DNA of 64,000 nt from Octopus vulgaris (taxonomy: Eukaryota): the NCBI GenBank assembly GCA_951406725.2, contig OX597830.1:22878001-22942000 (forward strand), given 5' to 3'. The position numbers and the translations under genes are program-made. Shown here piece after piece: positions 8,891 through 61,568 of the stretch. Each line of letters opens with the position of its first letter. The stretch's first letter is position 1. The notes under the pieces were generated by a model. That model was not told the DNA's origin, searched no databases, and saw only the letters and a program-made list of their open reading frames with translations.

Positions 8891-9742
8891 ACTTTTTCTA
8901 TTCCGGAGCGTTATACTAATACATCTGTTTGTTTTGTACACCACCTGTCTTCGTCTTTTGTTTTTTTTCGTAAACTCTCCTTATATATATATACGTACAC
9001 ACACGCAACATACACTCACACAAGTACATGCGTACACACAAACATTGTCGAAGTTGGCTCGCTCGAGAGTGCGCGGGAATACCAACCAATCGGACAGACG
9101 ATGGTTCGTGTACTGATACCAGTTTTACATTGTGTCCCTGCCGAAGATACTTTGATTTCAGCAGCTCAGTTCATAATGGATTCAAATATCATCCTAGTGT
9201 ATCCGGTAAAACTTTCAACGAAGTTAACTGCTATCAAGCACAACTCTCTCGGACAACTGCTCCTATCTTACCCGAACAACTGCATCCACTCACCCGGACA
9301 ACCGCCTACTAATAATTGTCTCCAGGCAATTATTAATTACATGGAAAAATGTGAGCAGTCTTAAGACTATAAACCTGGGAAATTATAGGACAGGTTATTA
9401 CACTTGGAAAAGTTCGGGACGTCTAGTGAAATACAGAACAAGAAACTTTTTACTTAAAATATTGCAGCCAAGGATAAAATTTCAAATAAAATATTTTGAT
9501 TTAGGAAATATTAGCTTTTATTAAAACTAAAAGTTTTATTACTAGTTATTACTTCCGTTTGTTATTGTTACTTCTATTAAAAATAAAAATTAATCTTAAT
9601 TAAAATATTTTTTTGCACTTTAAAGCAATTAATTTTTTTAATTATTAATTAATAATTAGAAATTTGAAAAGAGGTTATAAAAAACAATAGTAGTACATAA
9701 TTAGTACAATAAATAGAATAATACAAAAATTAGTTACACATA

Positions 9743-10145
9743 GGCGCAGGAGTAGCTGTGTGGTAAGTAGCTTGCTAACCAACCACATGGTTCCGGGTTC
9801 AGTCCCACTGCGTGGCATCTTGGGCAAGTGTCTTCTGCTATAGCCCCGGGCCGACCAATGCCTTGTGAGTGGATTTGGTAGATGGAAACTGAAAAGAAGC
9901 CTGTCGTATATATGTATATATATATATGTGTGTGTGTTTGTGTGCCTGTGTTTGTCCCCCTAGCATTGCTTGACAACCAATGCTGGTGTGTTTACGTCCC
10001 CGTAACTTAGCGGTTCGGCAAAAAGTGACCGATAGAATAAGTACTGGGCTTACAAAGAATAAGTCCCGGGGTCGATTTGCTCGACTAAAGGCGGTGCTCC
10101 AGCATGGCCGCAGTCAAATGACTGAAACGAGTAAAAAGAGTAAAA
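9743..10145 (+). mobile_element. SINE family A
   Basis: Full-length homologue of 1099-1528. Confidence 0.85.
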
Positions 10146-10331
10146 AAAAAAGAGAGAGATTACAGTAAAATCTACCTAGAACAACAAATTCACAGTAAAA
10201 TTTTGTTGAGTTATTGCCAAGTCTTCACATTTTTAGTCTTGACCCAATGTCTATTTTTTACATAACGAATTTGCCTGTCATATATACTATTCTCCTTTGC
10301 ATAAACCTTTAGCTATATTGGTACTTCTGGC

Positions 10332-10745
10332 GGATCTTTTCGGTTTGAACGGCAGTTTTTTAAAAATAATTTCCACGTAACTAAACACTTTTAAACTTCG
10401 TATACTAGTAGAATGTGTTTATAAAACATCTTTTTCTCTTGGCTTTATTGAGAAAATTCTATAGTTTGTAAGATATTTGTTGTTGTTTTTTTCAATTTCT
10501 GCAATTTCAACCAATCAGTTACGTCTATTGAGGTAAAAAAAACATTCTGTCACTCGTTTAAGAAACAGATTGGGTTTATTTACATTTCTGAAGAAAAAAA
10601 AAAGATACCCTTCCTCCCAATCCTAACCCTAACCCTAACCCTAAAACAGATTGAAATGCAATAGATCAATACTAGGGTCATAATTATGGGTAACAATTTC
10701 ATATGACACCGCTAGAAAAAACTGCCGTTCAAACCGAAAAGATCC
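10332..10745. mobile_element. MITE with GGATC...GATCC TIRs and internal (CCCTAA)n
   Basis: ~29-bp TIR GGATCTTTTCGGTTTGAACGGCAGTTTTT; flanked by a 21-bp direct repeat at 10311-10331 and 10746-10766. Confidence 0.9.
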
Positions 10746-12410
10746 AGCTATATTGGTACTTCTGGCTCTTATTTTTTAAGTATTCCAGTGTGTCAATATT
10801 TTAACAAAATGATGGTACCTTTTTTTAATTATAATATTACTTTGTAAATTAAAATCAAATAATTTTTAATATTCATATTTTATCCTTAGCTGCAATATTT
10901 TAAGTAAAAATTTCCTTGTTCTGTATTTTACCAGATGTAATAAGTTGTTTTGAACTTTTCCAAGTGTAATAACCTGTCCTGTAATTTTCCAGGTTTATAA
11001 TCTTAAGAATATTATTTCTGTTGCTCGCATTTCTTCATGTAATCCAGGTTTTTCTTTCCAGGCTATGTTATTATGTTAATTAATAATGTGTCAAATGTGC
11101 CAATTAGCGGTGTCGTTGATAATTTTTTCCTTATGTCAATGATGCCGGTGACATACATTGAAAGTCCCCTTTTTGGACTATATTCATAAAAAGTATAGAA
11201 CTATATTATCACCCTCAAATTTGAGAAACAAACACTCATAACTTTTTTCTTTTAAAACTTCATTGCATGAGATTGATATCATGAAATTCCTCGATTTGAG
11301 CCCTATCATTTAAACTTAATTAAAATATAGTTCGCTTTTAAAATAAAAATGTTAATTATATTTAAATCCAATATTTTGCCTTATTTTTTTTTCATGATTT
11401 TTACCTCACAACGTTTTTGTCACAAATTTTTGTTGCATGAGAACAAAACTATGAAATTCTTCATGTTTTCTTTTATCATTGAAGCTAAGATAATATATTT
11501 TGCTTTTAAAACAAAAAAAAGTTATTTGGATCTAAACTTGATTGGTGGCGTCTCTCCTATAATGTTACTACAAATTTTGATGTTAACTTTTTTCTACTGG
11601 ATTAAATCTCAATTTTTTTAATGCCAAAATGTAGCTAGGAATCAGTCCTCTTCAAAAATGTTAACAATTTTCAATTTGGTTTAGAACTGAATTGGCGAAA
11701 AGCTCTGAAAGGTGCTGCGTGTGAGTAAATTGCGGCCTTAAGAATATTATCCGACTACTGCCGTAGTTGAATGAATATATTTGAATATAAGCAACTTTGA
11801 TAATGTAAACATTATCGATGTCACATACTGTATGTGTTTTGTTTATATACCCATTATTTGTGCGATAGCGTCCTGGGGGAAAGTCCTTTTAAGAAAATAG
11901 TACTTCAAACCAGGCGAGGCAATTCGCTGTGTGTGTGATCGAAAACGATGGATATTGATAATTCACAGTTTTCGCTACTCATAGGTATCATGTACTCGAT
12001 TGACCTCGAGACGAATTAGAACACTGACCTGAGATATATATGCAAATAGTGTAGAGTCTATCTGCTTATGTACAACAACGCCACGCAAGTAATACGATAT
12101 TAAACTTGAATTATAAGCAACTCTAATAGTACATAAATACATAAATAATCAATGTTACATACTTAATGCATGTATTTTGCTTATGCGCTTATTAGCTGCG
12201 GGTTTAGCATCAGAGGGAAAAGTCTCTTTAAGACGCCGAATGTAAAAAAAAAAAACCCAAAAAGACCACTGAATAACGCAAACCAAACGTGACAACTCCC
12301 CACGCAGGTGAACAAGAACGATGAATATCAATAAGACACTGTTTTTGCAGCGGCAATATTTAATTCTAGCAATTAGTAATTATTATGTTTATGTATGATC
12401 TACAACAGTT

Positions 12411-12843
12411 TGATCTTTTCGGTTTGAACGGCAGTTTTTTAAAAATAATTTCCACGTAACTAAACACTTTTAAACTTCGTATACTGGTAGAATGTGTTTA
12501 TAAAACATCTTTTTCTCTTGGCTTTACTGAGAAAATTCTATAGTTTGTAAGATATTTGTTGTTGTTTTTCTTCAATTTCTGCAATTTCAACCAATCAAAT
12601 ACGTCTATTGAAGTGAAAACATTCTGTGCCGTATGAATATGTCCCTCGTTTAAGAAACATATTGGGTTTATTTACATATCTGAAGAAAAAAGATACCCAT
12701 CCCCCCACCCCTAACCCTAACCCTAAACCTAACCCTAACTCTAAAACAGATTGAAATGCAATATCGATAATAGGGTCATAATTATGGGTGACAATTTCAT
12801 ATGACACCGCTAGAAAAAACTGCCGTTCAAACCGAAAAGATCC
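12411..12843. mobile_element. MITE with GGATC TIRs and (CCCTAA)n, copy 2
   Basis: Homologous to 10332-10745; flanking repeat CAGTT(T). Confidence 0.9.
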
Positions 12844-13103
12844 CAGTTTTCAATTTTGATGGAGTAAACATGCTTTATTTATACAGAATCGGCTAAAACG
12901 ATTTCATAGATGGTACCAACGATCTCATAACGGCAGGATCAAATAAGAAATATCGACAGTGCGGTATCAAATATTTTAAGAAATGAGTTTATAGCATCAG
13001 CCCCACACAAAGCATTAAAAATGTTTTTGATTTGCCAAGAAGTGATTTCCAATAAATCTAAGAAACCTTCAGGATAAGAAAAGCACCTGGAAATAATTCA
13101 TAT

Positions 13104-13560: not shown

Positions 13561-14308
13561 AACAAAAGATATAGAGAATTACTGCCTTTGATGGCATAAA
13601 AGACACACGGACATATTAGATGCACTCCAATTTCAGCAGCGCGTATTCAGGAGAAAAAGTGTTTTTAGTACATTAAGTTATGTAATATAGGCCCAACTTT
13701 GCATACAGGAATCGAGGTGTTTTTTTTAAGCGTTTTTTGAAGGAAAATGTGTATTGAATGCCATCAAGTACGGTATTTTGTTTTAAAGCAATTCAGAATT
13801 TTGCAATTCAGTTTTGCAGACGACCGATTTTGCTATTCAATTTTGCAGACGACCGACGTTTCAACAAAATGCATGAAAACGAGGAGTTACGTACCTCTTA
13901 CAATTTTTCTTACCTACTCTTCCAGATCAGAAAACCACATACTATTGACGAAGAATTGATCCTAGTAGCTGTTGGTGAGGTTCTACATAGCTTGTTATAC
14001 AAACTCAGCAACTGAAATAATCAATAAAATTCCTTTGAGGAATAATACAATACAATGTCGAATAGACGAAATAACCAAAGATCCAATTTTTTCTAAGGTC
14101 TGCCTAATTTTTGTTACAGCTATATGAACCAACTCTGCGAACATAAACTAGCATTAAGAACTCATTCGAGACTTTAATGTTAGTTTATGTTCGGTTATAA
14201 AGGGCGAAAAAACACACAGAGACAAAAAAACACAAGAGTTTATTATTTGCTAGACATTTGGTAACAAATTCTAAAAGGAGAATCGATAATTCTTGCAGAG
14301 GAGATGCT

Positions 14309-14346
14309 TCCTTCCTTTCTTTCTTTCTTTCTTCCTCCCTCCCTCC

Positions 14347-14388
<42 letters not shown>

Positions 14389-14426
14389 ATCTTCCTTCCT
14401 CCCTTTCTTTCTTTCTTCCTTCCGCC

Positions 14427-14483
<57 letters not shown>

Positions 14484-14636
14484 TTTCTTTCTCCCTCCCT
14501 TTCTTTCTTCCTTTCTTTCTTTCTTTCGTTCTTCCTTTCTTCCTTCATTTCTTTCTTTCTTCCTTTCTTTCTTTCTTCCTCCCTCCCTTTCTGCCTTTCT
14601 TTCTTTATTTCTTTTTTTCTTTCTTTCTTTCTTTCA

Positions 14637-14667
<31 letters not shown>

Positions 14668-14706
14668 TCCCTCCCTTCCTTCCTTCCTTCCTTCCTTCCT
14701 TCCTTT

Positions 14707-14740
<34 letters not shown>

Positions 14741-14822
14741 TTCTTTCTTTCTTCCTTCCGCCCTTTCTTTCTTTCTTTCTTTCTCCCTCCCTTTCTTTCT
14801 TTCTTTCTTTCTTCCTCCCTCC

Positions 14823-14855
<33 letters not shown>

Positions 14856-14866
14856 TCCCTCCCTCC

Positions 14867-14915
<49 letters not shown>

Positions 14916-14928
14916 TCCCTCCCCCTTC

Positions 14929-14978
<50 letters not shown>

Positions 14979-15031
14979 TTCTTTCTTTCTTTCTTTCTTC
15001 CTTCCGCCCTTTCTTTCTTTCTTTGTCCCCC

Positions 15032-15096
<65 letters not shown>

Positions 15097-15155
15097 TCAC
15101 TCCCTTTCTTTCTTTCTTTCTTTCTTTCTTTATTTATTTATTTATTTCTCCCTCC

Positions 15156-15204
<49 letters not shown>

Positions 15205-15211
15205 TCCCTCC

Positions 15212-15244
<33 letters not shown>

Positions 15245-15361
15245 TCCCTCCCTTTCTTTCTTTCTTTCTTTTTTCTTCCTCCCTCCCTTTCTTTATTTCT
15301 TTCTTTCTTCCTTCTTTATCCCTCCCTTTCTTTATTTCTTTCTTTCTTCCTCCCTCCCTCC

Positions 15362-15402
<41 letters not shown>

Positions 15403-15493
15403 TTTCTTTCTTTCTTTCTTTCTTTCTTCCTTTCTTCCTCCATCCCTTTCTTTATTTCTTTCTTTCTTCCTTTCTTCCTCCCTCCCTTCCTTC

Positions 15494-15539
<46 letters not shown>

Positions 15540-15585
15540 TTCTTTCTTTCTTTCTTCCGCCCTTTCTTTCTTTCTTTCTCCCTCC

Positions 15586-15667
<82 letters not shown>

Positions 15668-15765
15668 TCCCTCCCTTCCTTCCTTCCTTTCTTTCTTTCT
15701 TTCTTTCTTCCTTCCACCCTTTCTTTCTTTCTTTCTCCCTCCCTTTCTTTCTTTCTTTCTTTTTT

Positions 15766-15803
<38 letters not shown>

Positions 15804-15833
15804 TCCCTCCCTTTCTTTCTTCCTTTCTTTCTG

Positions 15834-15867
<34 letters not shown>

Positions 15868-15910
15868 TTCCTTCCTTTATTTCTTTCTTTCTTTCTTTCT
15901 TCCTCCCTCC

Positions 15911-15941
<31 letters not shown>

Positions 15942-16022
15942 TTTTTCTTTCTTTCTTTCTTTCTTTCTTCCTTTCTTCCTCCCTCCCTTTCTTTATTTCT
16001 TTCTTTCTTTCTTCCTCCCTCC

Positions 16023-16059
<37 letters not shown>

Positions 16060-16430
16060 TTTCTTTCTTTCTTCCTTTCTTTCTTTCTTTCTTTCTTCCT
16101 TTCTTTCTTTCTTTCTTTCATCCTTCCTTCCGCCCTTTCTTTCTTTCTTTCTCCCTCCCTTTCTTTCTTTCTTTCTTTCTTTCTTCCTCCCTATCTTTCT
16201 TTCTTTCTTTCTTTCCTTCTTTCTTCCTCCCTCCCTCCCTTTCTTTCTTTCCTTCTTTCTTCCTCCCTCCCTCCCTCCCTTTCTTTCTTTCCTTCTTTCT
16301 TCCTCCCTCCCTCCCTCCCTTTCTTTCTTTCCTTCTTTCTTCCTCCCTCCCTCCCTCCCTTTCTTTCTTTCTTCCTTCCTTTCTTTCTTTCTTTCTTCCT
16401 TTCTTTCTTTCTTCCTTTCTTCCTTTCTTC

Positions 16431-16467
<37 letters not shown>

Positions 16468-16546
16468 TCCCTCCCTTCCTTCCTTCCTTCCTTTCTTTCT
16501 TTCTTTCTTCCTTCCACCCTTTCTTTCTTTCTTTCTTTCTCCCTCC

Positions 16547-16619
<73 letters not shown>

Positions 16620-16657
16620 TCCCTCCCTCCCTTTCTTTCTTCCTTTCTTTCTGTCAT

Positions 16658-16699
<42 letters not shown>

Positions 16700-16901
16700 T
16701 TCCGTCCTTTATTTCTTTCTTTCTTTCTTTCGTCCTCCCTTTCTTTCTTTCTTTCTTTCTTCCTCCCTCCCTTTCTTTCTTTCTTTCTTTCTTTCTTTTT
16801 TCTTTCTCTCTTTCTTTTTTTCTTTCTTTCTTTCTTCCTTTCTTCCTCCCTCCCTTTCTTTATTTCTTTCTTTCCTTTCTTCCTCCCTCCCTTTCTTTAT
16901 T

Positions 16902-16967
<66 letters not shown>

Positions 16968-17034
16968 TTTCTTTCTTTCTTTCTTTCTTTCTTTCATCCT
17001 TCCTTCCGCCCTTTCTTTCTTTCTTTCTCCCTCC

Positions 17035-17071
<37 letters not shown>

Positions 17072-17231
17072 TCCCTATCTTTCTTTCTTTCTTTCCTTCT
17101 TTCTTCCTCCCTCCCTCCCTTTCTTTCTTTCCTTCTTTCTTCCTCCCTCCCTCCCTCCCTTTCTTTCTTTCCTTCTTTCTTCCTCCCTCCCTCCCTCCCT
17201 TTCTTTCTTTCTTCCTTCCTTTCTTTCTTTC

Positions 17232-17262
<31 letters not shown>

Positions 17263-17443
17263 TTTCTTTCTTTCTTTCTTCCTCCCTCCCTTTCTTTCTT
17301 TCTTTCTTCCTCCCTCCCTCTCCCTCCCTCCCTCCCTCCCTCCCTCCCTTTCTTTCTTTCTTTCTTTCTTCCTTTCTTTCTTCCTTTCTTTCTTCCTCCC
17401 TTTGTTTGTTTGTTTGTTTCTTTCTTTCCTTCTTTGTTTCCTT

Positions 17444-17478
<35 letters not shown>

Positions 17479-17571
17479 CCTCCCTTTCTTTCCTTCTTTC
17501 TTCCTCCCTCCCTCCCTCCCTTTCTTTATTTCTTTCTGTCTTTCTTCCTCCCTCCCTCCCTCCCTCCCTCC

Positions 17572-17604
<33 letters not shown>

Positions 17605-17619
17605 TCCCTCCCTCCCTCC

Positions 17620-17656
<37 letters not shown>

Positions 17657-17851
17657 TACCTCCCTCCCTTTCTTTATTTCTTTCCCTCTTTCCTCCCTCC
17701 CTACCTCCCTCCCTTTCTTTCTTTCTTTCTCTCTTTCTTTCTTTCTCTCTTTCTTTCTCTCTTTCTTTCTCTGTTTCTTTCTTTCTTTCCTTCTTTCTTT
17801 CCTTCCTTCTTTCTTTCTTTGTTCCTCCCTCCCTCCCTTTCTTTCTTTCTT
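14309..17851. repeat. 3.5-kb compound polypyrimidine satellite (TTTC/TTCC/CTCC)
   Basis: Almost purine-free plus strand; this explains the three ~1200-aa F/L/S/P ORFs. Confidence 0.95.
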
Positions 17852-25240: not shown

Positions 25241-25543
<303 letters not shown>

Positions 25544-25829
25544 ATTTCAACAATTGAGGGTAAAATTAATTAATTATTAATCAATTTCACCAAGTGTTCA
25601 GTATGCAAAGGGACCATTTAAGGCGAATTCAAATTATTACATTATATAAAAGGGCTTAGTAAAATAAATTACTTTGCCGCATACTGAACTCATTAGAAAT
25701 AGCAGCTAAAAAACTTTTTAAAGCTATTTCTAATACTTAAAGAAAATCTCTCTCATATATAGTGTTTGCTTAATTCAACTCACAAAAGTTTGGGGTAAGG
25801 ACATCAAAAAATCAAATGCTAAGGTTATT

Positions 25830-25881
25830 TGAGAACGTACGTTTCAAGATTAGTCAAAACGACACTTCTATCATCAGCTCA
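25830..25881 (-). ncRNA. Minimal type-I hammerhead ribozyme
   Basis: UGAG-CUGAUGA-(uAGAaguGUC..GACuaaUCUu)-GAAA-CGUACG-UU-CUCA. Confidence 0.75.
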
Positions 25882-26360
25882 GAAACTCCTTGGTTTGGAT
25901 TTGGAAACACTGAAAGTAAGAACATACCCTTTCGGCTTCTCATCGCTCTCGAAGATCTGCTCGTAACTAACAGTGCCAACAAACTCAAATAAGCAAGCGA
26001 AGAATTTCTGTTCTCCCCTTTCCACCAGCGTGGGTTAAAATCATCAAACACTATGCTTATTTCGGTAAAATCCGAAGCATTAATTAGAGGGAGATTAATT
26101 ATAATTTCAACAATTGAGGGTAAAATTAATTAATTATTAATCAATTTCACCAAGTGTTCAGTATGCAAAGGGACCATTTAAGGCGAATGGTGTTTGATGA
26201 TTTTAACCCACGCTGGTGGAAAGGGGAGAACAGAAATTCTTCGCTTGCTTATTTGAGTTTGTTGGCACTGTTAGTTACGAGCAGATCTTCGAGAGCGATG
26301 AGAAGCCGAAAAGGGTATGTTCTTACTTTCAGTGTTTCCAAATCCAAACCAAGGAGTTTC

Positions 26361-26412
26361 TGAGCTGATGATAGAAGTGTCGTTTTGACTAATCTTGAAA
26401 CGTACGTTCTCA
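26361..26412 (+). ncRNA. Minimal type-I hammerhead ribozyme (inverted copy)
   Basis: Reverse complement of 25830-25881; palindromic ACGUACGU stem III, GUU triplet. Confidence 0.75.
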
Positions 26413-26694
26413 AATAACCTTAGCATTTGATTTTTTGATGTCCTTACCCCAAACTTTTGTGAGTTGAATTAAGCAAACACTATATATGAGAGAGATTTTC
26501 TTTAAGTATTAGAAATAGCTTTAAAAAAGTTTTTTAGCTGCTATTTCTAATGAGTTCAGTATGCGGCAAAGTAATTTATTTTACTAAGCCCTTTTATATA
26601 ATATATATGTATATATGTATATATATATATATGTGTATATATATATATGTGTATATATATATATATATTATATATATATATATATGTATATATA

Positions 26695-28889: not shown

Positions 28890-29815
28890 ATGATAGGAAG
28901 CGAAATAGAGGTAGTAAAGAGATGAGTAAAACCAAGAACTCATGTTCTAGAATACGGGAAGTCATATGGTTCACCCCCACCCTTTTTCTCTCAGAGTAAG
29001 AAATTTGCCCTAGTTGTTTTTTTAGGATTATGAAGGAGAATTTCCCAAAGAATCATAAATACTACATCATCTTTAAGAAATCCTCCATCAAATTTTCTTA
29101 CTCGGTAATGCCAAATTTGGCCTCAATTATTGCATCTATTAATAGAAGCAAGTTTAATGAGCAAGTGCACTGGAAGTATTCTTTTGCTGAAAACCCTGGT
29201 ATTGGGCAGGTAAGCCCTAATATGCCTAAGATTAGTGCTATAAACCATTTGCTCCCACCGGTCTAATCGAACCCCAGTAATGAGATATGCGAAGGTAAGA
29301 AAGCCGGAAGCCAGATAAGTAATGTTAGTATTAGTAATAAGGTTAGGGATGGCTCTGGTAAATCCTGTAATTGGTAGAAATCCTGGACTATGTCCCCTTG
29401 ATGGAGTTTGTCTCACTACTAATGCTATATATAAATGCATTGTTAAAGAGGAGGGTAATTTGGATAGGTTTTATAAAGGCAGTACTGTAAATTTTAGGGC
29501 TCGGTATAGGACCCACATGAATTCGTTTTCGAACGAAAAATATTGTAACTCCACTACACTTGCCTCTTATATACATAGTTTAAAGAGGAATAATAAAAAT
29601 TATTCTCTTGAATGGTCTGTTATATCGAGGGCCCCTTATTTCAGAGTTAATATCAACAAGTGTTGTAAGTTATGTGTAAGGTAATCCCTTGCCATCCTTA
29701 AGTCTTTTGGGCCTAAAACTTTAAATAAATTTACAGAGGTGATCCCTTTTTGCAACCATAAGTTTTCTTCTACTTTTCTGAAAGCGTACAGAAATAAAAT
29801 TAGATGTGGTAAATA
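28890..29815 (+). pseudogene. Penelope-like element C-terminus: linker and GIY-YIG endonuclease (Naiad-like motifs), decayed
   Basis: VIWFTP, KFSYSVMPN, CN(C)RNPGLCPLDGVC (frameshift about 29373), AIYKC..FYKGST, RYRTHMNSF, STTLASYIH, CKLC, CNH; stops and frameshifts present. Confidence 0.8.
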
Positions 29816-33550: not shown

Positions 33551-34150
33551 GGGCGGCGAGCTGGCAGAAACGTTAGTACGCCGGGCAAGATGCTTAGCGG
33601 TATTTCGTCTGCCGTTACGTTCTGAGTTCAAATTCCGCCGAGGTCGGCTTTGCCTTTCATCCTTTTGGGGTCGATTAAATAAGTACTAGTTACGCACTGG
33701 GGTCAATGTAATGGACTTAATCCGTTTGTCTGTCCTTGTTTGTCTCCTCTGTCTGTAGCCCCTTGTGGGTAGTAAAGAAATAGGTATTTCGTCTGCCGCT
33801 ACGTTCTGGCTTCAAATTCTGCCGAGCTCGGCTTTGCCTTTCATCCTTTCGGGGTCGATTAAATAAATACCAGTTACGCACTGGGGTCGATATAATCGAC
33901 TTAATCCGTTTGTCTGTCCTTGTTTGTCCTCTCTGTGTTTAGCCCCTTGTGGGTAATAAAGAAATAGGTATTTCGTCTGCCGTTACGTTCTGAGTTCAAA
34001 TTCCGCCAAGGTCGACTTTGCCTTTCATCCTTTCGGGGTCAATTAAATAAGTACCAATTACGCACTGGGGTCGATATAATCGACTTAATCCGTTTGTCTG
34101 TCCTTGTTTGTCCCCTCTGTGTTTAGCCCCTTGTGGGTAGTAAAGGAATA
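33551..34150 (+). mobile_element. SINE family B trimer with 14-bp TSD
   Basis: One head plus three ~184-bp units; GGTATCAATCAGCA at 33533-33546 and 34151-34164. Confidence 0.85.
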
Positions 34151-35293
34151 GGTATCAATCAGCATCTGTTGAACAACAGCAACAAATAAAAAATATATAT
34201 ATTGACAAAGTGAAGAGAACATCATGTGGGTCGGAAGTGAAATCCGCAAGATGTACTTGCTTCCCGTTGACCTTTCATGCAACCCCAGACTAGTGTACCT
34301 CACTAAAAACCCAGAAGAGAACTACTCTATCTACCACAGAAAAAGAATAAAAACAAAAGGGTTGTGCGTGGGTATTTTTCTCGCAAATTTGTATATGATG
34401 CTAAAATTAAGATGAACTGTAGCCGTCCTTGGGGTTATAGTCGTTGCACCACGTGACATTTCGTTCGAAGGTTATGTGTTTGCAATACAGAAACAGGAGA
34501 TAGCTACAAAAAGCAAGTCGAAAATAAGTACAAAATGCAACAGTAATTATATGCAAGATTTTCTGAAGTTCATCGTATAACTTGTCACTGTTTTTGTTAT
34601 CCAAATTCCATTAATGGAGTTTTATTTCTTTGTTAGAGACTGACTCCTCATTTGTTGGGAAAATTCATTCAAATAATAATAATGATGAGGAGGATAATAA
34701 AGATAACATTCGTAAAATAACATGGCGATTGGAACTTGTTCTGCGGGAAATATCTAAGTAAACACTTGGAATAACACACGTGTTTCACTGTAAGTTTGTG
34801 TGTGTGCGCGCGTGTATGTATGTATGTGTGTGTTTGTGTTAGAATACGTATGTGAAGTGTGTGTGTGTGTGTGTGTGAGGCAGTATACGTACGTTTGTGT
34901 ATTTGTGACATTTTTTTTTCTCCCTAATTAATTTTCTCCATCACTCTCTCTTTCTCTGTCTCTCTCTTCTATATCTCTCTGTATATCTATTTAACTCCCC
35001 CCTCTCCGTTCTTACTCTTTTCAACATCTGCATGTCTTCCCTGGGAATTTCCTTTCGTCTTTTTGCAAACTCACGCACTCACTCACACTCTCAAGCACTC
35101 ACTCACTCACACTCTCAAGCACTCACTCACTCACACTCTCAAGCACTCACTCACTCACACTTTACCTGCTCACTAACATCCTTCACGCTCTCTTATTCTC
35201 TAACAGTCACACATGTATACAAACACATTGCACATAGTACATGCTTATATACGTACATGGAATCGGGCATGCTTGTATATATTTATGTATGTA

Positions 35294-37503: not shown

Positions 37504-38019
37504 TCGTAAATTCTCGAGTATAGTCCACCCTTGAGTATAATACACAGGGCATTTTTAGGGGCGGGGGCTGTACCTCTGAAACAACCTAAATCTTGTGTAT
37601 AATACGCACCCCTTCTCTAACTTGAGTCAAGGATGTCTATATAACGTCCTTGGTTTGTAAAAATGTATACGCTAACGTCCTTTATTATTGTATATATAAC
37701 ATAAAGCAAACGTGTACCTTTTTTATGCATTTTGTTTGCAGAAAGTAAATAAATAACAGTAATAACGTTTAATAAATGTAGCTTACTGCAAGTTATGGAT
37801 GATTCTTTTATGACTTCATTGCTTTCAGGCTTAGCTTAAGGTATTTTCGCGCCCGACATCACAAAATGCGTCTGAATAAACATTGCCGGACAGCAAATAG
37901 AGACTCGGGCATTGCTTAGGAAATATTTTTCATTTTTAACCTCGTATATAGTACGCACTAAGGATTTTGACCTTTAAATTTGGGGGGGAAAAATGCGGAT
38001 TATACTCGAGGATTAACTG
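37504..38019. mobile_element. Tc1/mariner-superfamily (pogo/Tc2-like) MITE
   Basis: TIR (C)CGTAAAT(C/T)CTCGAGTATA with TA flanks; related to 61054-61568 in the opposite orientation. Confidence 0.8.
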
Positions 38020-38052
<33 letters not shown>

Positions 38053-38057
38053 ATATA

Positions 38058-38441
38058 CTAGCAGTACTGCCCGGCGTTGCTCAGGTTTGTAAGGGAAATA
38101 ACTATAAAGCATTTTTAGAGAGTTATAGCCAAAAAATAGCAAAAAAATGGAAAAAAATGATGGTACATTTTTTTTGAGATTTAAAAAAGGTGGAGTTGCG
38201 TCCCCTAGACAGTTTGTGGTTCGTGTTTCTGATTCTCGACCCCATGTGGAATTTATCGATTTTTTTCAGAACTGGAGGAACTTTTCAAAATTTTCGCTGC
38301 GTTAGTTTTGAATTATGACATTGGGCTATGTGTGTGTCAAGTTTCATCAGAATCGGTTGAAAGCCGTGGTCAGGGTGAGGGTGCAAGCAAACAGACACAC
38401 AGAAACACGCACAGACAAACTGCCGTTTATATATAGAGAGA
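38058..38441 (-). mobile_element. Non-autonomous Helitron-like element
   Basis: 5' TC; 3' hairpin CCTGAGCAACGCCGGG then CTAG; inserted between A and T. Confidence 0.8.
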
Positions 38442-38462
38442 TATGTAATATATATATGTATA

Positions 38463-38970
38463 TCTATATATATAAAACTGTAGTTGTGTGAGTGTCTGTC
38501 CCCTTCGATTTAGATTCCTAACTACTCCCACATTTTGCGGTGCAGTTTAACCAAATTCGGGTATCTTATAGTCGTGATTCATATCGAGCCCGTCTGTGTA
38601 TTAGCGCGCGTCTACGATGAGTCTACGATTTAAAAAATAATTTAACATTTTTTATTCCATTTTAATGCATAATTTTTCGTGTGTCGATGGCGGCGGAGTT
38701 GGCGTCCATGGTCACACCTGCACCTGTTTGCTTCTCCCCCTTCTTCCTCCCTCGTGAAGCTGTGGGGAAGGGAGTGTAAGGAAATCAACGTCGTAAAGCG
38801 TTGTCAAGGAGACCAGCGTTCTTTTAGAACAACGACTTCATGGCTTGAAGACACCAAAACAGAAATGGCTAAGAAAGCCCGAATTGGCATCTATAAGGGA
38901 AGTAACTCTCTAAAAATGCTTATATAGTTATTTCCCTTACAAACCCGAGCAACGCCGGGCGATACTGCTA

Positions 38971-38971
<1 letters not shown>
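38463..38971 (+). mobile_element. Non-autonomous Helitron-like element, second family
   Basis: A|TCTATATATATAAAA ... CCCGAGCAACGCCGGG CGATACTG CTAG|T. Confidence 0.8.
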
Positions 38972-39022
<51 letters not shown>

Positions 39023-39817: not shown

Positions 39818-40608
39818 TTGGGGAAATTTTGAACCTGGGTTCTCATTCTTAAGGTATTTTTCGATGTTATGTTGTTGTTGTCGTCGTCGTCGTCGTCGTT
39901 GTTGTTGTTGTTCAGGTCACTGCTTGGAATCGCTCTTAACCCCCAAGATTCTGAGTTCGATTCCAAGCAGTGACCTGGACAATAATAATATCGAAAAATA
40001 CCTTAGGAATGAAAACGCAGGTTCGAAATTTCCCATCTCTTAAATATAGAACTGAAATTGGTTATACTTCAACAAAAATTATTTTAACAATTATTTTATA
40101 CATTTCCTAATTAATTATAAAAATATGATTTTTAGACATCGAATGGCCAGGAGGGTCTGAATAAAATAAGGAATCAGAGGGATTCATAGGTAAAAAAAAA
40201 TGCTCCATCATTTTCCCTTTCTATCTCCACACTCCCTCTTTCTTCATATCTATCATTCCCCAACATTCTTTACTCGTTTCGTTTCGTCTATCCCTTCTGT
40301 TTTCTCTTTATACGACCCTTCTCTCGTCCTCACTCTCCGCCATCGTCTCTACCCTTTATAACCAGTTCTCTCCCTCTCTACTTCCTTATAGGTACCACGT
40401 GACAATCCTCCTTTTTTGACTACCCATCCTTTTACTGCCTGACTACTGGTTTGCTTGGTTGGGTTTTTTTAAGGTTCTCATCGTAGCATTTCTTTCAGCC
40501 CCTGGTTTGTTTTGTTTTCTTATATCATTTTTCAACTTCGAAAGAACGACTTTCTCTTTTAGTGTTGTTACATTCGCACATGTCTTAATTCTGTCGTACA
40601 GCTGAAAG

Positions 40609-41025
40609 GGATCTTTTCGGTTTGAACGGCAGTTTTTAAAAATAATTTCCACGTAACTAAACACTTTTAAACTTCGTATACTGATAGAATGTGTTTATAA
40701 AACATCTTTTTCTCTTGGCTTTATTGAGAAAATTCTATAGTTTGTAAGATATTTGTTGTTCTTTTTTCTTCAATTTCTGCAATTTCAACCAATCAATGAC
40801 GTCTATTGAGATGAAAACATTATGTGCCGTATGAATATGTCCCTCGTTTAAGAAACAGATTGTGTTTATTTACATTTCTGAAGAAAAAAAGATACCCTTT
40901 CGCCACCCCTAACCCTAACCTTAAAACAGATTGAAATGCAATAGATCGATACTAGGGTCATAATTATGGGTGACAATTTCATATGACACTGCTAGAATAA
41001 ACTGCCGTTCAAAGCGAAAGGATCC
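40609..41025. mobile_element. MITE with GGATC TIRs and (CCCTAA)n, copy 3
   Basis: Homologous to 10332-10745; 8-bp flanking repeat GCTGAAAG at 40601-40608 and 41026-41033. Confidence 0.9.
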
Positions 41026-41655
41026 GCTGAAAGTCTATATATACTAAGTGGTATCAAAAAGAGAATATCACATTTCCGGATGTGACGCTCGTGGCAGGGC
41101 TTCCTGATCGCTCATCTTCTTCCAGGAAGGTTCTTTCGATTGTGAAGCACCCATGTCGCTCAAAATAAACGTGAAATAAAGCTGCTTGCTCAAGGAAATA
41201 ATACGCTGCCAGTGATCGAACCTTCGACTCTACGATCGTAAGCAGAATATCCCAACTACTAAGTCACGCACCTTCACGTATGCATGCACACACACACATA
41301 CTTTGAGACCCCCTTCGGTCATGACTGACCATGGGATTGCACCTAGAAAGTTACACTCCTAGGCACAAGTCTGGGCAAGGTTGTTTATGGACGACCATCA
41401 GTCGCCCATGCATACCGACCAAGGATGTTATCCAAAGGAAAGGCAAAGGCCGGTTCAGTTTGGCACCTGTGACGTCGCAACTCATTTCTACAGCTGAGTG
41501 GACTGAAGCAACGTGAAATAAAGTGTCTTGCTCAAGAACACAACACGCAGCCCGGTCCGGGATTCGAACTCACAACCTCACGATCGGAAGCTCGACGCTC
41601 TAATCACTGAGCCACGCGCCTTTACATACATACATACATACGCACACACATTTGA

Positions 41656-51744: not shown

Positions 51745-52264
51745 AAACATAACTTCAGCAAGATATGATTCCTAAGTGTCGTCTACCCTAATCTGGACCT
51801 AATTTCATATCGTATCATTTTACACCGGTCAATTTGTTGTAACACGAGTCGATTGTTTAGCAGATAACGAGACTAACAGGCGCCATTTTAATAGTTCACG
51901 CGTTTGTTGTTGTTGACGGTGACGATATTGTTGTTGCAATTGATGCCGTTGATGTTGTAATTTTTGTTGTTGTACTAGTTGTTGTTCTAATATTAAAGAT
52001 GTGGCTAATATTGTATGTAGTAGGGTTGTGAGCTGTCAAAATCGTTAACACGTCGGACACAATACTTAGCGGCATTTCTCACGGCTTTTTACATTCTGAG
52101 TTCAAATTTTGCTGAGACTGACTTTACCTTCTGTTTTCTCAGGGTCCATAAAATAAGGTACCGGCTGAACACCGATAAGTCGAAGTAATCGACCAGCATC
52201 GGTTGTCAAGCGATGTTGGGGGACAAACACAGACACACAAACATATATATATATATATATATAT

Positions 52265-53770
52265 GTATGAAATTAAAGACAATATTTCAGAATTCTGCAG
52301 AAAACTACGACTCGCAGAAGCACTAACTGACTACGACAACGAAGATGAATCACTAGTCAAAAACAGAAGTAATTACCTCCCACATAAGGGTAGGAATAAA
52401 ACACTGGATGACTACTGCAACCATATCCAAAATTTCCCCTACACATCCATTAAACGAAAAATTAATCCTGACCTCAACAATCTAGAATGGAAAAATCTGA
52501 CTGAACTAAAAAACGACACAGATCTGACAATTAAAGAAGCTGGCAAAGGAAGTGCTGTAGTTTTGATGGACACAGAACACGATAAAAAACTAGTACTTTC
52601 CATATTAGAAAACGAAGCCTTCTACGAAAAAATTATAAACTATAAACAACAAAAAACCATGAAAAATCTTGTATCCTTAATTCTCCTACATGGAAAAGGC
52701 CTGACAGAAAAAGAAACAGACTACATCACGAACTTCAAATGTAAACCCAGTCTTTTTTATGGCCTCCCTAAAATACACAAGAGCAAGATAATCAATGAAG
52801 CCTGCAAACAATCACCAGGCAAATATATAAACATCCAAACGCCAGAAGACTTGACTTTAAGACCCATTGTAGCTGGGCCAGCCTGTGAAACTCACCGACT
52901 GAGCAATTTTCTAGACATCCTACTAAAGCCCTTGCTGAAATACATTAAAAGCTTCATTAGGGATGATTTAGACATGTTAGAACACATACCAAAAACGATT
53001 AATGAAGAAGCAGTATTGGTCACCCTCGATGTTATCAATCTTTACACCAACATCCCCCATGACTATGGAATAAAAGCAATTAAATTCTGGTTGGAAAAGT
53101 ACCCCGAAGTCCTCTCGGAACGCATAAACCAGATCTTTATTATTGAATCCTTAAAATTTATACTTCAGAAAAATTATTTCCTATTTGATGACACATACTA
53201 TCGTCAGAAATGCGGAATTGCGATGGGGACGAAAGCAACTCCTGTTCTTGCGAACCTAATAATGGGTTATTTTGAATTCACCTTATATGAAGTATCACTT
53301 CAGAAATATGGTTACCCATTTTACCTCTACATAAGAGAAAATTGGAAGCAATACTTGGATGATTGATTTATCATCTGGAAGGAGAACATCGACAAACTTT
53401 TGGATTTCAAAACAACAATAAATGACATAAATAGTAACATTCAATTCACAATGGAATATGATAAAGAACAACTTCCTTTTTTAGACATCATGATAAAAAA
53501 AGTCAACAATGAAATCATAACTGACATTAATTATAAACCAACTGACACAAAACAATATTTTCTTTTTAACTCATGCCACCCGAAACACATAAAAATAAAC
53601 ATTCCTTTTAACTTAGCAAAAAGGATCTGCACAATAGTGTCTGCTAGAACAACTCGGGACCTTCGTCTTCAAGACCTCAAAACAACACTTATTGAAAGAC
53701 AATATCCACCCTCTCTTATCGACGAGGGAATTAAACGTGCCAAACAATTAGACACCAAAACACTAAGAAC
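52265..53770 (+). pseudogene. Penelope-like element reverse transcriptase, truncated at both ends
   Basis: IKEAGKGSAVV (DKG motif), FYGLPKIHK, LRPIV, LDVINLYTNIPH, GIAMGT, YLDD, IQFTME..LPFLD, YKPTD..SCHPKH. ORFs 52203-53366 and 53400-53825 are in one frame separated by a single TGA. Confidence 0.9.
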
Positions 53771-54129
53771 ATTGAGTTTGAGCAAATCTTACGTAAATTC
53801 TGGGGGATATGTTTTTAGTAGATAACCCCTTGCTAAGAAATACATCCTAGCTGATTGGGGACGATAAAATAAGTACCAGTTGAGCACGGTGTCGGTGTTA
53901 ATCGATTTCGCTATTCCTCAAAATTGCTGGCATTGTACTAGAATTAGAAGGAATTATTATACCTAGCACAAAGATCGTCTTCCGTGCGGTCATTCTTCTG
54001 GTCGCAAAATGATATTCCCAATTTGTGTAACTTTACTGGGATGTTATGCCTAATTTTCCCTTGTATCTTTTATTCGTCTAATAATACTAACTCGTAAGCT
54101 AAATGTTTCTTTCAATATTTTATCGTAGT

Positions 54130-57859: not shown

Positions 57860-60500
57860 TTCCGTCTGTTTATGTTTTCAGTTACTGCTCCTTCTAGGCT
57901 CAATCTCTTTCGGTGCTGACACATCGAACATGTCGTAAAACACCTCCATTGGAGTTTCTTTCATTTTTTCTGTATGTCTGGGTTTTAATTGATTTAAGTG
58001 TCGTTTATGTTCCCATCGTTGGCCTTTTATTAAATACATCAGGTTTCCTATTCTTTTAGTCACTACACCATCCTGCCAACTCTCTTTACCGTTCTTGTAT
58101 ACTTTGAAATGAACTTTGTCTCCGACATCAAAATGCTTTGTTAAATTTTTTGTATTTTCTCTATACGTTTTTTCCTTTGGTAACAATTTGTCGAAGATCG
58201 ATTTAATCTTTCGAGCGAACATTATCTCTGCAGGCGACTTGCCTGAACTGGAATTCGGATTAGGCATTATTCTGTACACCTTTTAAGTATTTAGTTAGCG
58301 CTTCGCCATTTCCTTACTCATTCCTTGCTTTTTTTTCGCGCTCGCTTGAAAGTACGAATCGTTCTGCTTCCTCATTTGACCTTGGGTGGTAGGGCGGGGT
58401 AAACACGTGTTTGATTGCATGCATTTTGCAGAATTTCTTCAACTCGTATCCGGTAAATTGTTGCCAATACACGTAGCTCCTCACCGAAGCTTTCATTCTT
58501 GACATGCCCTGATGTCCACTATGAAATTCATGTAATATCTATTTCTGTAGTGCAGTTGGATCTATCACTCTTTCTGCGTACATTAGTACATCGTCGCAGA
58601 GGGAAAAATGGTTGTTATTCGTGTTTCTCTTTTGTTTATTTTTCAAAGTTTCTTTCATTTTGATCATGTATCTGTCCTCCGCTGATTTACTTTTTATACC
58701 TTGTACAGTCACTGGCAACACCTGAATGACATTACACATAGCGTTCTTAATTTCCTTTTCTGATTAAGGCGGCGAGCTGGCAGAAACGTTAGCACACCGG
58801 GCGAAATGCTCAGCGGTATTTCGTCTGCCGTTACGTTCTGAGTTCAAATTCCACCGAGGTCGACTTTACCTTTCATCCTTTCGGGGTCGATAAATTAAGT
58901 ACCAGTTACGCACTGGGGTCGATGTAATCAACTTAATACCTATGTCTGTCCTTGTTTGTCCCCTCTGAGTTTAGCCCCTTGTGGGTAATAAAGAAATAGG
59001 TATTTCGTCTGCCGTTACGTTCTGAGTTCAAATTCCGTCGAGGTCGACTTTGCCTTTCGGGTTCAATTAAATAAGTACTAGTTACGCACTGAGGTCGATA
59101 TAATCAACTTAATCCGTTTGTCTGTCCTTGTTTGTCCTCTCTGTGTTTAGCCCCTTGTGAGTAGTAAAGAAATAGGTATTTCGTCTGTCTTTACGTTCTG
59201 TGTTCAAATTCCGCCGAGATCGACTTTGCCTTTCATCCTTCGGGGTCGATAAATTAAGTACCAGCTGCATACTGGGGTCGATCTAATCGACTGCCCCTTC
59301 CCTCAAAATTTCGGACCTTTTTTGATTGTAATGCGGCTATCACCGTATCTTCCAGCGGTTCTGTATTCTCAGCCAATTTTCTTAGAGGGAATGTACTCCA
59401 TCTTAAAGTTGTAATTTAACAATATTGTAACCCAGCATTGGCTGTATTCCTTTCTTCGATCCGAAAATTGATAGTAATTGTCGGTAGTCCGTTTGAAACT
59501 GAAAACTTCTACCGTGGAGAAATCTGTGAAATTTCTTCACGGTAAAAACAATCGCTAGAGCTTCTTTCTCTATCTGACTGTAGTTTTTCTCTGTTGCAAT
59601 CAGAGCACGTGAGGCATGAAGCACCGCCTTCATATTACCGTCTTTGAATTTATGTAGCAAAACTGCTCCTATATTCAGAAGCGTCAGATGCTACAGTAAA
59701 CTCCGCTGCAGGATCGAAATCAGCCAGCGACAAATCTGAAATTAATATTCTTTTGATATCCTGAAACATTATTTGACCAATTCCATTTGGCGTCTTTCTT
59801 TAGCAAATTATTAAGTGGAGCTCTCAATTCATACATGTTTGGTGTGTAATTTTGATAATGGTTTACCAGGCCAAGAAAAGCTTGTAATGTCGCTATGTTA
59901 GGAAAGGCATATTTTTAATCGCGTCTGCCCTCGACGGGTCAGGTCGTTTTCCATTTTTATCGATAATCTGTCCTAAATATTTCATTTTAGGCAAAGCAAA
60001 TTCACATTTCTTCTCACTGGGTGTGAAACTGTAATATCTTATTTTTTGTAAAACCCACTTCGCATGTCCGATATGCTGATCACGAGATTCACTTTTAATT
60101 AATGCATCATCCAGGTATGGAATTGCGAATTGACAGTCCACCAATATCACATCTATTACCTGTTGAAATATTGCAGGTGCATCCTTCAGACCAAATGGAA
60201 ATATATTGTATTTGTATAGTTCTTTGTGCGTACTCACTGTTAGAAACTTCGAGCATTTCTTGTCTACTTTTAATTTGTAGATACGCATCAGACAGATCTA
60301 GTTTCGAAAATATTTTGCCACCATTTAATTATGCAAAAATATCCTGTGGAGTAGGCAGTGGATAGTAGCACATTTTTAGATTGTCATTCAAGCTAGTACA
60401 GAAATCGGCAGACACCCTCATTTTTTTTAAATACACACAATTGGTACTGCCCACTTAGAATAATCTACTTTTTGAATAATTTCAATTTTCTCCAGTTTTT
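57860..60500 (-). pseudogene. Decayed Ty3/Gypsy (Mag-like) pol: RT, RNase H, integrase
   Basis: YPLP, FSKLDLSDAYLQ, FPFGLKDAPAIFQ, YLDD; ASDAS, ASRAL..EKNYSQIEKEALAIVF; HSGHQGMSRMK..RSYVYW, PPYHPRSNEEAERFV, GKSPAEIMF; many frameshifts; no LTR seen. Confidence 0.9.
58766..59320 (+). mobile_element. SINE family B trimer inserted in the Gypsy pol
   Basis: Head plus two long-tail units and one short-tail unit; junctions GAAATA|GGTATTTCG. Confidence 0.85.
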
Positions 60501-61053
60501 AAATTATTTTCTTCAAAACAGCTGCTCGGTCAAAATGTATATAACCGTAGCTACATGTATGTATGTCTGTATACGCATATATATATATATAAGAAATTAA
60601 AAAAGGAAAATACGCACACTTACATGGTTTTAATATAATTTTTAATATATCGACCGGTTCACGTGGGGACAACCGAAATTCCTCTTTTCTGTTACTACTA
60701 CTACTACTACTATATATATATAATTTTGTCTCCGCCTCACACACTACTTTATCAACACCAACCAGTTATAGTCTGTTAATGTGCCCGTAAATTAGCAGTT
60801 CGGCAAAAGACACCGATAGAAAAAGCACTGAGATCAGTTTGCTCGTTTGTGTGTACACACACACACACACTTTTTATTTTGCTCCAGTCGGTCTCTTGTT
60901 ACTCTGAGTATCAGATGTCGGTACATAGGATCTTCAGGCAAGGCACCTACAGATGAAACTCGGGGTAGCAAGTGAGTGACTCAACAAAAATAGACTGTAT
61001 TATTAATCTCAACTAGAGATTACTCCTTTATCTTACAGTTAAAACTACAGTTA

Positions 61054-61568
61054 CCGTAAATCCTCGAGTATAATCCGCATCTTTTCCCAAAATTTAAATG
61101 TCAAAATCCCTAGTGCGTACTATATACGAGGTTAAAAACGAAAAATATTTTCTAAGCAATGTCCGAGTCTCTATTTGCTCTCCGGCAATGTTTATTCAGA
61201 AGCATTTTGTGATGTCGGGCGCGAAAATACCTTAAGCCAAGCCTGAAAGCAATGAAGTCATAAAAGAATCATCCATAACTTGCAGTAAGCAACATTTATT
61301 AAGATAAAAGTATTCAGAACACAGAAAAGCATGTAACAAAAACAATTTGCAAACATATTTGCATTCCCATATAACAGTTAAGAACATCATCATTGTTGTA
61401 TTACGCATGCGCGGAGGTGTTTGTTCGATTAGGTGCTGCTGGTTTAATTATGCACAACTCAAGTTAGAGTGCGTATTATACACAAGGTTTAGGTTTTTCA
61501 GAGGTACAACCCCTTAAAAATCCTCTGCGTATTATACTCAAGGGCGGACTATACTCGAGGATTTACGG
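61054..61568. mobile_element. Tc1/mariner-superfamily MITE
   Basis: TA|CCGTAAATCCTCGAGTATA ... TATACTCGAGGATTTACGG|TA. Confidence 0.85.

What the first reader, a model, noticed from the sequence alone, without database searches (positions are those of the whole stretch)
10311..10766. TIR element with internal telomeric repeats and very variable target duplications (21, 5-6 and 8 bp)
Seen: three ~415-430-bp copies (10332, 12411, 40609) with GGATC...GATCC TIRs and 2-6 CCCTAA-like units at the same internal position. Flanking direct repeats are AGCTATATTGGTACTTCTGGC (21 bp), CAGTT(T) and GCTGAAAG. Established: most cut-and-paste superfamilies make fixed-length TSDs, and TTAGGG is the common metazoan telomere repeat. 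Inference: an atypical integration mechanism or a poorly characterised transposase, spreading interstitial telomere-protein or G4 sites.
Basis: partly seen in the sequence, partly recalled or inferred. Interest (0 to 1): 0.7.

Follow-up and report, generated by a model that had tools for sequence, protein, structure and literature searches.

The report
Octopus mini-transposon with uneven target duplications
A small non-coding jumping element in octopus DNA carries a few telomere-like repeats and, unusually for its kind, is flanked by duplicated target sequences of different lengths (8 and 21 bases in the two undamaged copies), which hints at an irregular way of inserting but rests on only three copies.

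Summary
Confirmed: three copies (414-433 bp, 88-90% alike) of a non-coding element with 30-bp GGATC...GATCC terminal inverted repeats, 3-6 CCCTAA-like units about 100 bp from the right end, and flanking direct repeats of 21, 5-6 and 8 bp. The host is an octopod. The 21-bp repeat is no chance match (0 of 42,700 control pairs). It also cannot be a pre-existing tandem plus an ordinary 8-9-bp duplication. But copy 2 has a damaged left end, and an 8-bp duplication minus a 3-nt deletion reads the same. So variable length rests on two intact copies, 8 versus 21. It is a MITE, most likely moved by a GG...CC-type DDE transposase (Merlin slightly ahead of MULE). No transposase was found and membership is unproven. 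I put about even odds on loose cut spacing as a family property, against a fixed 8-bp family with accidents. The telomeric units are a short slipping microsatellite. A strict G4 motif occurs in 1 of 3 copies, and protein binding is untested. Within-family variation in duplication length is published for IS481EU in parabasalids; my ten searches found no such report for animal TIR elements.

The parts
10311..10331 (+). c1 left target duplication, 21 bp
   Evidence: exact match to 10746-10766; no internal period, no third copy
10332..10745 (+). MITE copy 1, 414 bp, non-coding
10332..10361 (+). c1 left TIR, 30 bp
   Evidence: 100% complementary to 10716-10745
10621..10644 (+). c1 CCCTAA-like run, 4 units (3 perfect)
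10716..10745 (+). c1 right TIR, 30 bp
10746..10766 (+). c1 right target duplication, 21 bp
12406..12411 (+). c2 left duplication, 5-6 bp visible; junction damaged, so a lower bound
12412..12843 (+). MITE copy 2, 432 bp; first G of the left TIR lost or changed
12709..12744 (+). c2 CCCTAA-like run, 6 units (4 perfect); the only copy with a strict G4 motif on the other strand
12844..12849 (+). c2 right duplication
40601..40608 (+). c3 left target duplication, 8 bp
40609..41025 (+). MITE copy 3, 417 bp; right TIR with 2 changes in 27 nt
40907..40924 (+). c3 CCCTAA-like run, 3 units (2 perfect)
41026..41033 (+). c3 right target duplication, 8 bp
9336..11043 (.). older inverted-repeat element (arms about 9336-9533 and 10819-11043) into which c1 and a SINE-like repeat are nested; context, not part of the family

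Best explanation
A young non-autonomous cut-and-paste element (MITE) of an octopus genome. It encodes nothing. Its 30-bp ends are bound in trans by a DDE transposase of the GG...CC class (Merlin/IS1595 slightly ahead of MULE/MuDR). SHOWN: precise inverted ends, three independent insertion sites with different flanking duplications, no ORF, and a 21-bp duplication tied exactly to the ends. INFERRED: the transposase joins the two ends to staggered positions in the target and host repair fills the gaps. The spacing of the two joins is loose in this family (usually near 8 bp, sometimes about 21), as if the two strand transfers were not rigidly coupled. INFERRED: the CCCTAA run is a passenger microsatellite inherited from the founder element. 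It gains and loses units by slippage and is spread by transposition, not added by telomerase at each site. Separate odds: MITE moved by a TIR transposase about 0.95; uneven duplication length as a family property about 0.5; partner is Merlin or MULE about 0.6.
For: Ends and duplications. No coding capacity: longest stop-free stretches overlapping the copies are 70, 84 and 83 aa, and the 84-aa one has no homologue. Low divergence at the ends (2-3% substitutions in the left 190 nt, 3-6% in the right 95 nt), so a perfect 21-bp duplication is plausible as original. Pre-existing tandem plus canonical duplication excluded. All three copies have different visible lengths, which a fixed-length family explains only with two separate accidents in three copies (inference). 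Merlin fit: GG ends, TIR 24-462 bp, 8-9-bp duplication, frequent internal tandem repeats, 191 sequences in Octopus bimaculoides (PMC8101967); in an automatic annotation of molluscs, almost confined to cephalopods (PMC10294476). The TIR matches 7 of the 10 non-GG positions invariant in 3 bivalve Merlin termini; 21 of 4,763 GG-starting window sites score as high (0.4%). Fixed position and varying unit number of the CCCTAA run.
Against: n = 3, and only two intact junction pairs. c2 is compatible with any original length of 6 or more, 8 included. No transposase among 146 window frames. The Merlin pattern was drawn from only 3 termini, after the fact. A bivalve MULE terminus matches equally well by eye (12 of the first 22 positions each; best of 33 MULE against best of 3 Merlin). 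Neither reaches Repbase's 10-of-11 terminal criterion (6 of 11 each; criterion). In the passages read, Merlin duplications are 8-9 bp and MULE 8-11 bp; nothing near 21. The lengths 5-6/8/21 do not follow the ~10-bp steps of IS481EU.
Confidence: 0.5

Rival explanations
1. An ordinary fixed-length (8-bp) Merlin- or MULE-type MITE. c3 is the norm, c2 lost 3 nt across its left junction, and c1's 21 bp came from a one-off aberrant or secondary event, such as re-insertion of an end from the sister chromatid or homologue 13 bp away (hybrid-element insertion, recalled from P and Ac work, no call).
For: c3 has GG...CC ends with exactly 8 bp. One 3-nt deletion explains both the short duplication and the missing terminal G of c2. 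Duplication length is generally conserved within a DNA transposon family (PMC2817418, passage). Merlin-like MITEs in Nosema have 24-34-bp TIRs and 8-bp duplications (PMC4405373, table).
Against: Needs two independent accidents among three young copies (inference). c1 has perfect TIRs and a perfect 21/21 duplication with no scar or filler.
Confidence: 0.37
2. The element is inserted by a nick-primed route (through RNA by a LINE or Penelope-type enzyme, or a Helitron2-like route), or captured at staggered breaks, which naturally gives variable duplications.
For: Variable duplications are the hallmark of target-primed insertion (PMC7805219; PMC2817418). Helitron2-type CRe elements give 7-19 bp (PMC3627910). 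The window is rich in RT remnants, one with a weak GIY-YIG hit nearby in another frame set. All three duplications are followed by TC on the right side only, if c2 is read as 6 bp (three sites share a dinucleotide with probability 0.006 at one fixed position, chosen after the fact).
Against: No tail, no 5' truncation, and both ends are defined by a perfect TIR in all copies apart from one base. No RNA family match. The TC pattern vanishes if c2 is read as 5 or 8 bp.
Confidence: 0.08
3. The telomeric units are telomerase-made interstitial insertions, or the 21-bp repeat is an assembly artefact.
For: The only tandem CCCTAA runs of the window are in these elements. Raw reads could not be checked.
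Against: The run sits at the same internal position in all three copies, so it predates the insertions. The window has no N, and both copies of the 21-mer abut the TIRs to the base.
Confidence: 0.05

Closest known systems
Merlin superfamily (IS1595/IS1016-related) and Merlin-like MITEs
   Same: GG...CC ends, TIR length in range, one 8-bp duplication, internal tandem repeat, abundant in octopods; partial TIR pattern match.
   Different: A 21-bp duplication is outside the reported 8-9 bp; only 6 of the first 11 bases match the best of 3 bivalve Merlin termini; no DDE_Tnp_IS1595 partner found.
MULE/MuDR superfamily (including Rehavkus)
   Same: 33 of the 39 curated bivalve MULE families begin GG; 8-11-bp duplications; one terminus matches 12 of 22 positions by eye; Rehavkus carries a minisatellite before the 3' TIR.
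   Different: MULE TIRs are typically much longer; this TIR is 30 bp with no subterminal similarity beyond it; 21 bp is out of range.
IS481EU (and bacterial IS481/IS1202)
   Same: The published eukaryotic precedent for very different duplication lengths within one TIR family (4, 15, 24 bp in IS481EU-7_TV).
   Different: TNT...AYA or TGT...ACA ends, found only in parabasalids, lengths in ~10-bp steps; here GG...CC, an animal, 8 and 21.
Zisupton/KDZ elements
   Same: In an automatic annotation, Zisupton is almost confined to cephalopods among molluscs; fungal KDZ2/KDZ3 gave 4-8-bp duplications (PMC12810828, passage).
   Different: Those elements are 9-11 kb with 139-241-bp TIRs; termini were not compared; nothing near 21 bp.
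TBE telomere-bearing elements of ciliates
   Same: TIR transposon with telomere-like repeats (PMC7325037, passage).
   Different: [quoted passage not shown]

Membership tests
MITE (non-autonomous TIR element) | short, non-coding, bounded by TIRs | tested here: met
   414-433 bp, 27-30-bp TIR, no real ORF
MITE (non-autonomous TIR element) | dispersed copies each with its own target duplication | tested here: met
   3 of 3 copies, different flanks
MITE (non-autonomous TIR element) | high genomic copy number | not testable with these tools
   no eukaryotic genome collection; 3 copies in 64 kb
Merlin | 5'-GG termini, TIR 24-462 bp | tested here: met
Merlin | 8- or 9-bp target duplication | tested here: inconclusive
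   1 of 3 met (c3), 1 of 3 not met (c1, 21 bp), 1 of 3 damaged
Merlin | terminal match to a known member (10 of first 11 bases, Repbase rule) | tested here: not met
   best 6 of 11 against only 3 bivalve Merlin termini, by eye; no octopus Merlin termini available; wider pattern 7 of 10, 0.4% background
Merlin | autonomous partner with DDE_Tnp_IS1595 transposase and the same TIRs | not testable with these tools
   no transposase hit in 146 window frames; rest of genome unavailable
MULE/MuDR | 8-11-bp target duplication | tested here: inconclusive
   as for Merlin
MULE/MuDR | typically long TIRs | tested here: not met
   30 bp only; short TIRs do occur in some MULE groups
MULE/MuDR | terminal match to a known member (10 of first 11) | tested here: not met
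   closest of 33 GG-starting bivalve MULE termini matched 6 of 11, by eye
IS481EU | TNT...AYA / TGT...ACA termini | tested here: not met
   ends are GG...CC
IS481EU | duplications of about 4, 15 or 25 bp | tested here: not met
   8 and 21
Zisupton/KDZ | termini and transposase of the group | not tested
   no termini on hand; only distribution and duplication length read
SINE or other target-primed element | simple-repeat tail, 5' truncation, RNA-derived head | tested here: not met

The most novel reading that the evidence does not exclude
The family belongs to an undescribed animal group of GG...CC TIR transposons whose transposase makes its two target cuts uncoupled, one at a weakly preferred site (TC on the downstream side) and the other at a variable distance. 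This gives a broad spread of duplication lengths (about 5 to over 20 bp) within one family. The elements also carry host telomere repeats as a kept functional part, for example to recruit telomere-binding proteins.
Probability: 0.3. Interest if true: 0.72.

Novelty: new variant of a known kind. Interest (0 to 1): 0.45.

Why it matters
Target-duplication length is used to classify DNA transposons because it reflects the fixed geometry of the transposase. The eukaryotic TIR exception with very different lengths that I found in print is IS481EU of parabasalids, whose mechanism the authors call unexplained. An animal family with GG...CC ends and lengths of 8 and 21 would be a second, differently spaced case. 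A family with three copies in 64 kb should offer enough genomic insertions to read out cut-spacing and target preference from sequence alone. Classifiers that read variable length as a sign of non-LTR elements would mislabel it. If the census shows a fixed 8 bp, it is an ordinary octopus MITE whose only side interest is that it scatters short interstitial telomere-like runs.

Tried and rejected
Transposase in the window: 146 complexity-filtered stop-free frames of 55 aa or more (low-complexity and shorter frames left out) gave only RT, RNase H and integrase-zinc pieces, a weak GIY-YIG hit and two further weak hits. Rfam: 0 matches. Element against phages: no match; plasmids: 7 records with short matches at E 9e-3, taken as chance. 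Bacterial and archaeal genomes: the 21-nt TIR word gave 0; the 18-nt word gave 22 single matches, none extending ungapped (0-5 of the next 12 bases) or paired with an inverted copy (best 13 of 18), so chance. Protein search with the longest frame across c2: none of 32 candidates passed. Empty-site paralogues in the window: none spanning any of the 3 junctions. Composite transposition of c1+c2: no shared duplication at the outer ends. Longer degenerate duplications: none. The fold is dominated by the TIR stem. The promoter scan is bacterial and uninformative. CryptonV was considered and dropped: it targets microsatellites. Ptychodera-type contigs in the Merlin paper's S2 appendix carry (TTAGGG)2 at a fixed place near Merlin hits (host inferred from the text), but element ends are not visible, so this is a weak lead only. 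No TIR word of this family was seen in the supplements searched. Those searches see only the first few hundred letters of each record, and one search covered 12 of 33 files, so absence is not shown. Two papers were not held. The metagenome and viral contig collections and any eukaryotic genome stayed unchecked.

Full report
Observation. The window holds three full-length copies of one element, at 10332-10745, 12411/12412-12843 and 40609-41025, 87.8-89.9% identical by BLAST, and no other copy or fragment above noise. The ends are inverted repeats beginning GGATC: 30 of 30 complementary in c1, 29 of 29 in c2, 27 nt at 93% in c3. The 23-nt terminal word occurs six times, once per end, against none in 100 shuffles. 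Similarity between the two ends stops at position 30. Substitution distances are 2-3% over the left 190 nt and 3-6% over the right 95 nt; the middle, around the repeat run, aligns worse. The family is therefore fairly young. The copies have no real reading frame and the window has no Rfam match.

Flanking duplications. Exact direct repeats abut the ends: 21 bp at c1, 8 bp at c3, 5 or 6 bp at c2. In 42,700 control position pairs at the same spacing, 192 reached 5 bp, 75 reached 6, 31 reached 8 and none reached 21. A tandem that existed before an insertion with a t-bp duplication would leave a 21-mer whose first t bases equal its last t. No t from 1 to 20 does so exactly (8 of 8 mismatches at t=8, 6 of 9 at t=9), and there is no third copy next to it. 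What remains is an insertion with no duplication exactly at the joint of a perfect tandem, which is implausible. So the 21 bp were duplicated by the insertion or by a later event at the element's ends. A single deletion across that junction turns any original length of 6 or more into the observed text; an 8-bp duplication needs a loss of 3 nt. The firm evidence for uneven length is thus two copies, 8 and 21.

Telomere-like run. The copies hold 4, 6 and 3 CCCTAA-like units (3, 4 and 2 perfect) at the same place, 102-104 nt from the right end. These are the only runs of two or more perfect units in the 64 kb. The fixed position means the run belongs to the family and is carried along; the varying number looks like slippage (inference). 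A strict G4 motif of four G3 runs is present in c2 only. Binding by telomere proteins could not be tested.

Host and surroundings. A retroelement frame at 52254-53363 is 77-93% identical to its best Octopus sinensis relatives, so the host is an octopod. The window is repeat-rich DNA with RT and LTR remnants and no DNA transposase among 146 filtered frames. c1 sits inside an older inverted-repeat element of about 1.7 kb. No empty-site paralogue exists in the window. Prokaryotic collections gave only chance matches.

How it most likely works. The anatomy is that of a MITE: short TIRs are all that a cut-and-paste transposase needs in trans, and the duplication arises from gap filling after staggered joining (established knowledge; PMC10045372). 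The open question is why the lengths differ. A fixed-length family needs two accidents in three young copies: a long aberrant duplication and a junction deletion. A family with loose spacing needs at most the one-base change at c2. I have no measured rates for such accidents, so I put the loose-spacing reading at about 0.5 and the fixed-8 reading at about 0.37. One unexplained hint: on the right-hand side only, all three duplications are followed by TC if c2 is read as 6 bp (probability 0.006 for a shared dinucleotide at one fixed position, but picked after the fact). It would suit one preferred cut and one variable cut.

Comparison with known families. Merlin has GG ends, TIRs of 24-462 bp, 8-9-bp duplications and often internal tandem repeats, and is abundant in O. 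bimaculoides (PMC8101967: passages; section 10 part 1 of 2; section 11 part 2 of 2; S1 Table part 1 of 2). Automatic annotation found Merlin, Zisupton and Novosib almost confined to cephalopods among molluscs (PMC10294476, passages). The TIR matches 7 of 10 non-GG positions that are invariant in the three bivalve Merlin consensus termini of that paper's library; 21 of 4,763 GG-starting window sites do as well. However, 33 of 39 bivalve MULE families also start GG, and one matches as many of the first 22 positions by eye (12). Neither meets Repbase's 10-of-11 rule (PMC4455052, passages). MULE duplications are 8-11 bp and TIRs usually long (PMC6446971, passages). It works like a Merlin- or MULE-type MITE; membership of either is not shown. 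IS481EU is the precedent for very different lengths in one family but has other ends, hosts and spacing (PMC10045372, parts 1-3 of 5, abstract through conclusions). Passages only were read of PMC8869645, PMC5753468, PMC12859917, PMC7325037, PMC4405373, PMC8277862, PMC12810828, PMC7805219, PMC3627910 and PMC2817418. Hybrid-element insertion as a source of longer flanking duplications is recalled and comes from no call. I also recall, without a call, that short TIR elements with internal telomere-like runs are common in repeat libraries of aquatic animals, which would make that feature ordinary.

Novelty. Ten full-text searches (listings read, only the papers above opened) turned up no description of this family, of an animal TIR family with 8- and 21-bp duplications, or of MITEs with internal TTAGGG runs. 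Repbase and Dfam, subscription journals, bioRxiv supplements and the truncated parts of the supplements searched were not visible, and the family may well be deposited there. Verdict: a real, young octopus MITE with one clearly over-long target duplication. It is a new variant of a known kind if the census confirms the spread, and an ordinary new member if not. Interest 0.45.

Noticed in passing
window 10767-10770, 12850-12853, 41034-41037: On the right side only, each duplication is followed by TC(T/A) (c2 read as 6 bp), which also resembles positions 4-6 of the TIR; possible one-sided target preference.
   Followed up: partly
window 25641-26602: Near-perfect 962-bp palindromic element in AT microsatellite whose centre holds an exact 89-bp copy (26100-26188) of its own left flank (25540-25628); looks like local template switching or an assembly oddity.
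   Followed up: no
window 9336-11043: Older element with ~200-bp inverted arms that hosts c1 and a SINE-like repeat; its true ends and duplication were not resolved.
   Followed up: partly
window 9243-9305: Three copies of a GGACAAC-type 22-23-bp unit just left of that element, similar by eye to the repeated terminal motif of several bivalve MULE families.
   Followed up: no
window 14307-17851: 3.5-kb (CTTT)n array, about 886 units, extreme strand skew.
   Followed up: no
window 38053-38976: 924-bp element with inverted ends inserted in a TA microsatellite; its left part has a second copy at 1-259.
   Followed up: no
window 61052-61570 and 37769-38021: Another short TIR family (27-bp TIR starting TACCGTA), Tc1/mariner-like by recalled terminus.
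   Followed up: no
window 52179-53825 and 29319-29684: Retroelement RT frame (395 aa, continuing after one stop) with 93% identity to Octopus sinensis proteins, many relatives carrying GIY-YIG, so Penelope-like; a separate weak GIY-YIG fragment.
   Followed up: partly
window 57878-60297: Broken LTR-retrotransposon pol remnant (RT, RNase H, integrase zinc domain) on the minus strand.
   Followed up: no
window 33599-34155 and 58815-59234: SINE-like unit of 176-184 bp amplified as short head-to-tail arrays.
   Followed up: no
PMC8101967 supplements (not the window): Sequences next to Merlin hits carry short telomere-like runs: (TTAGGG)2 at a fixed position in several contigs of one animal and TTTAGGG-like units in one contig of the protist set; element boundaries not visible.
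   Followed up: partly
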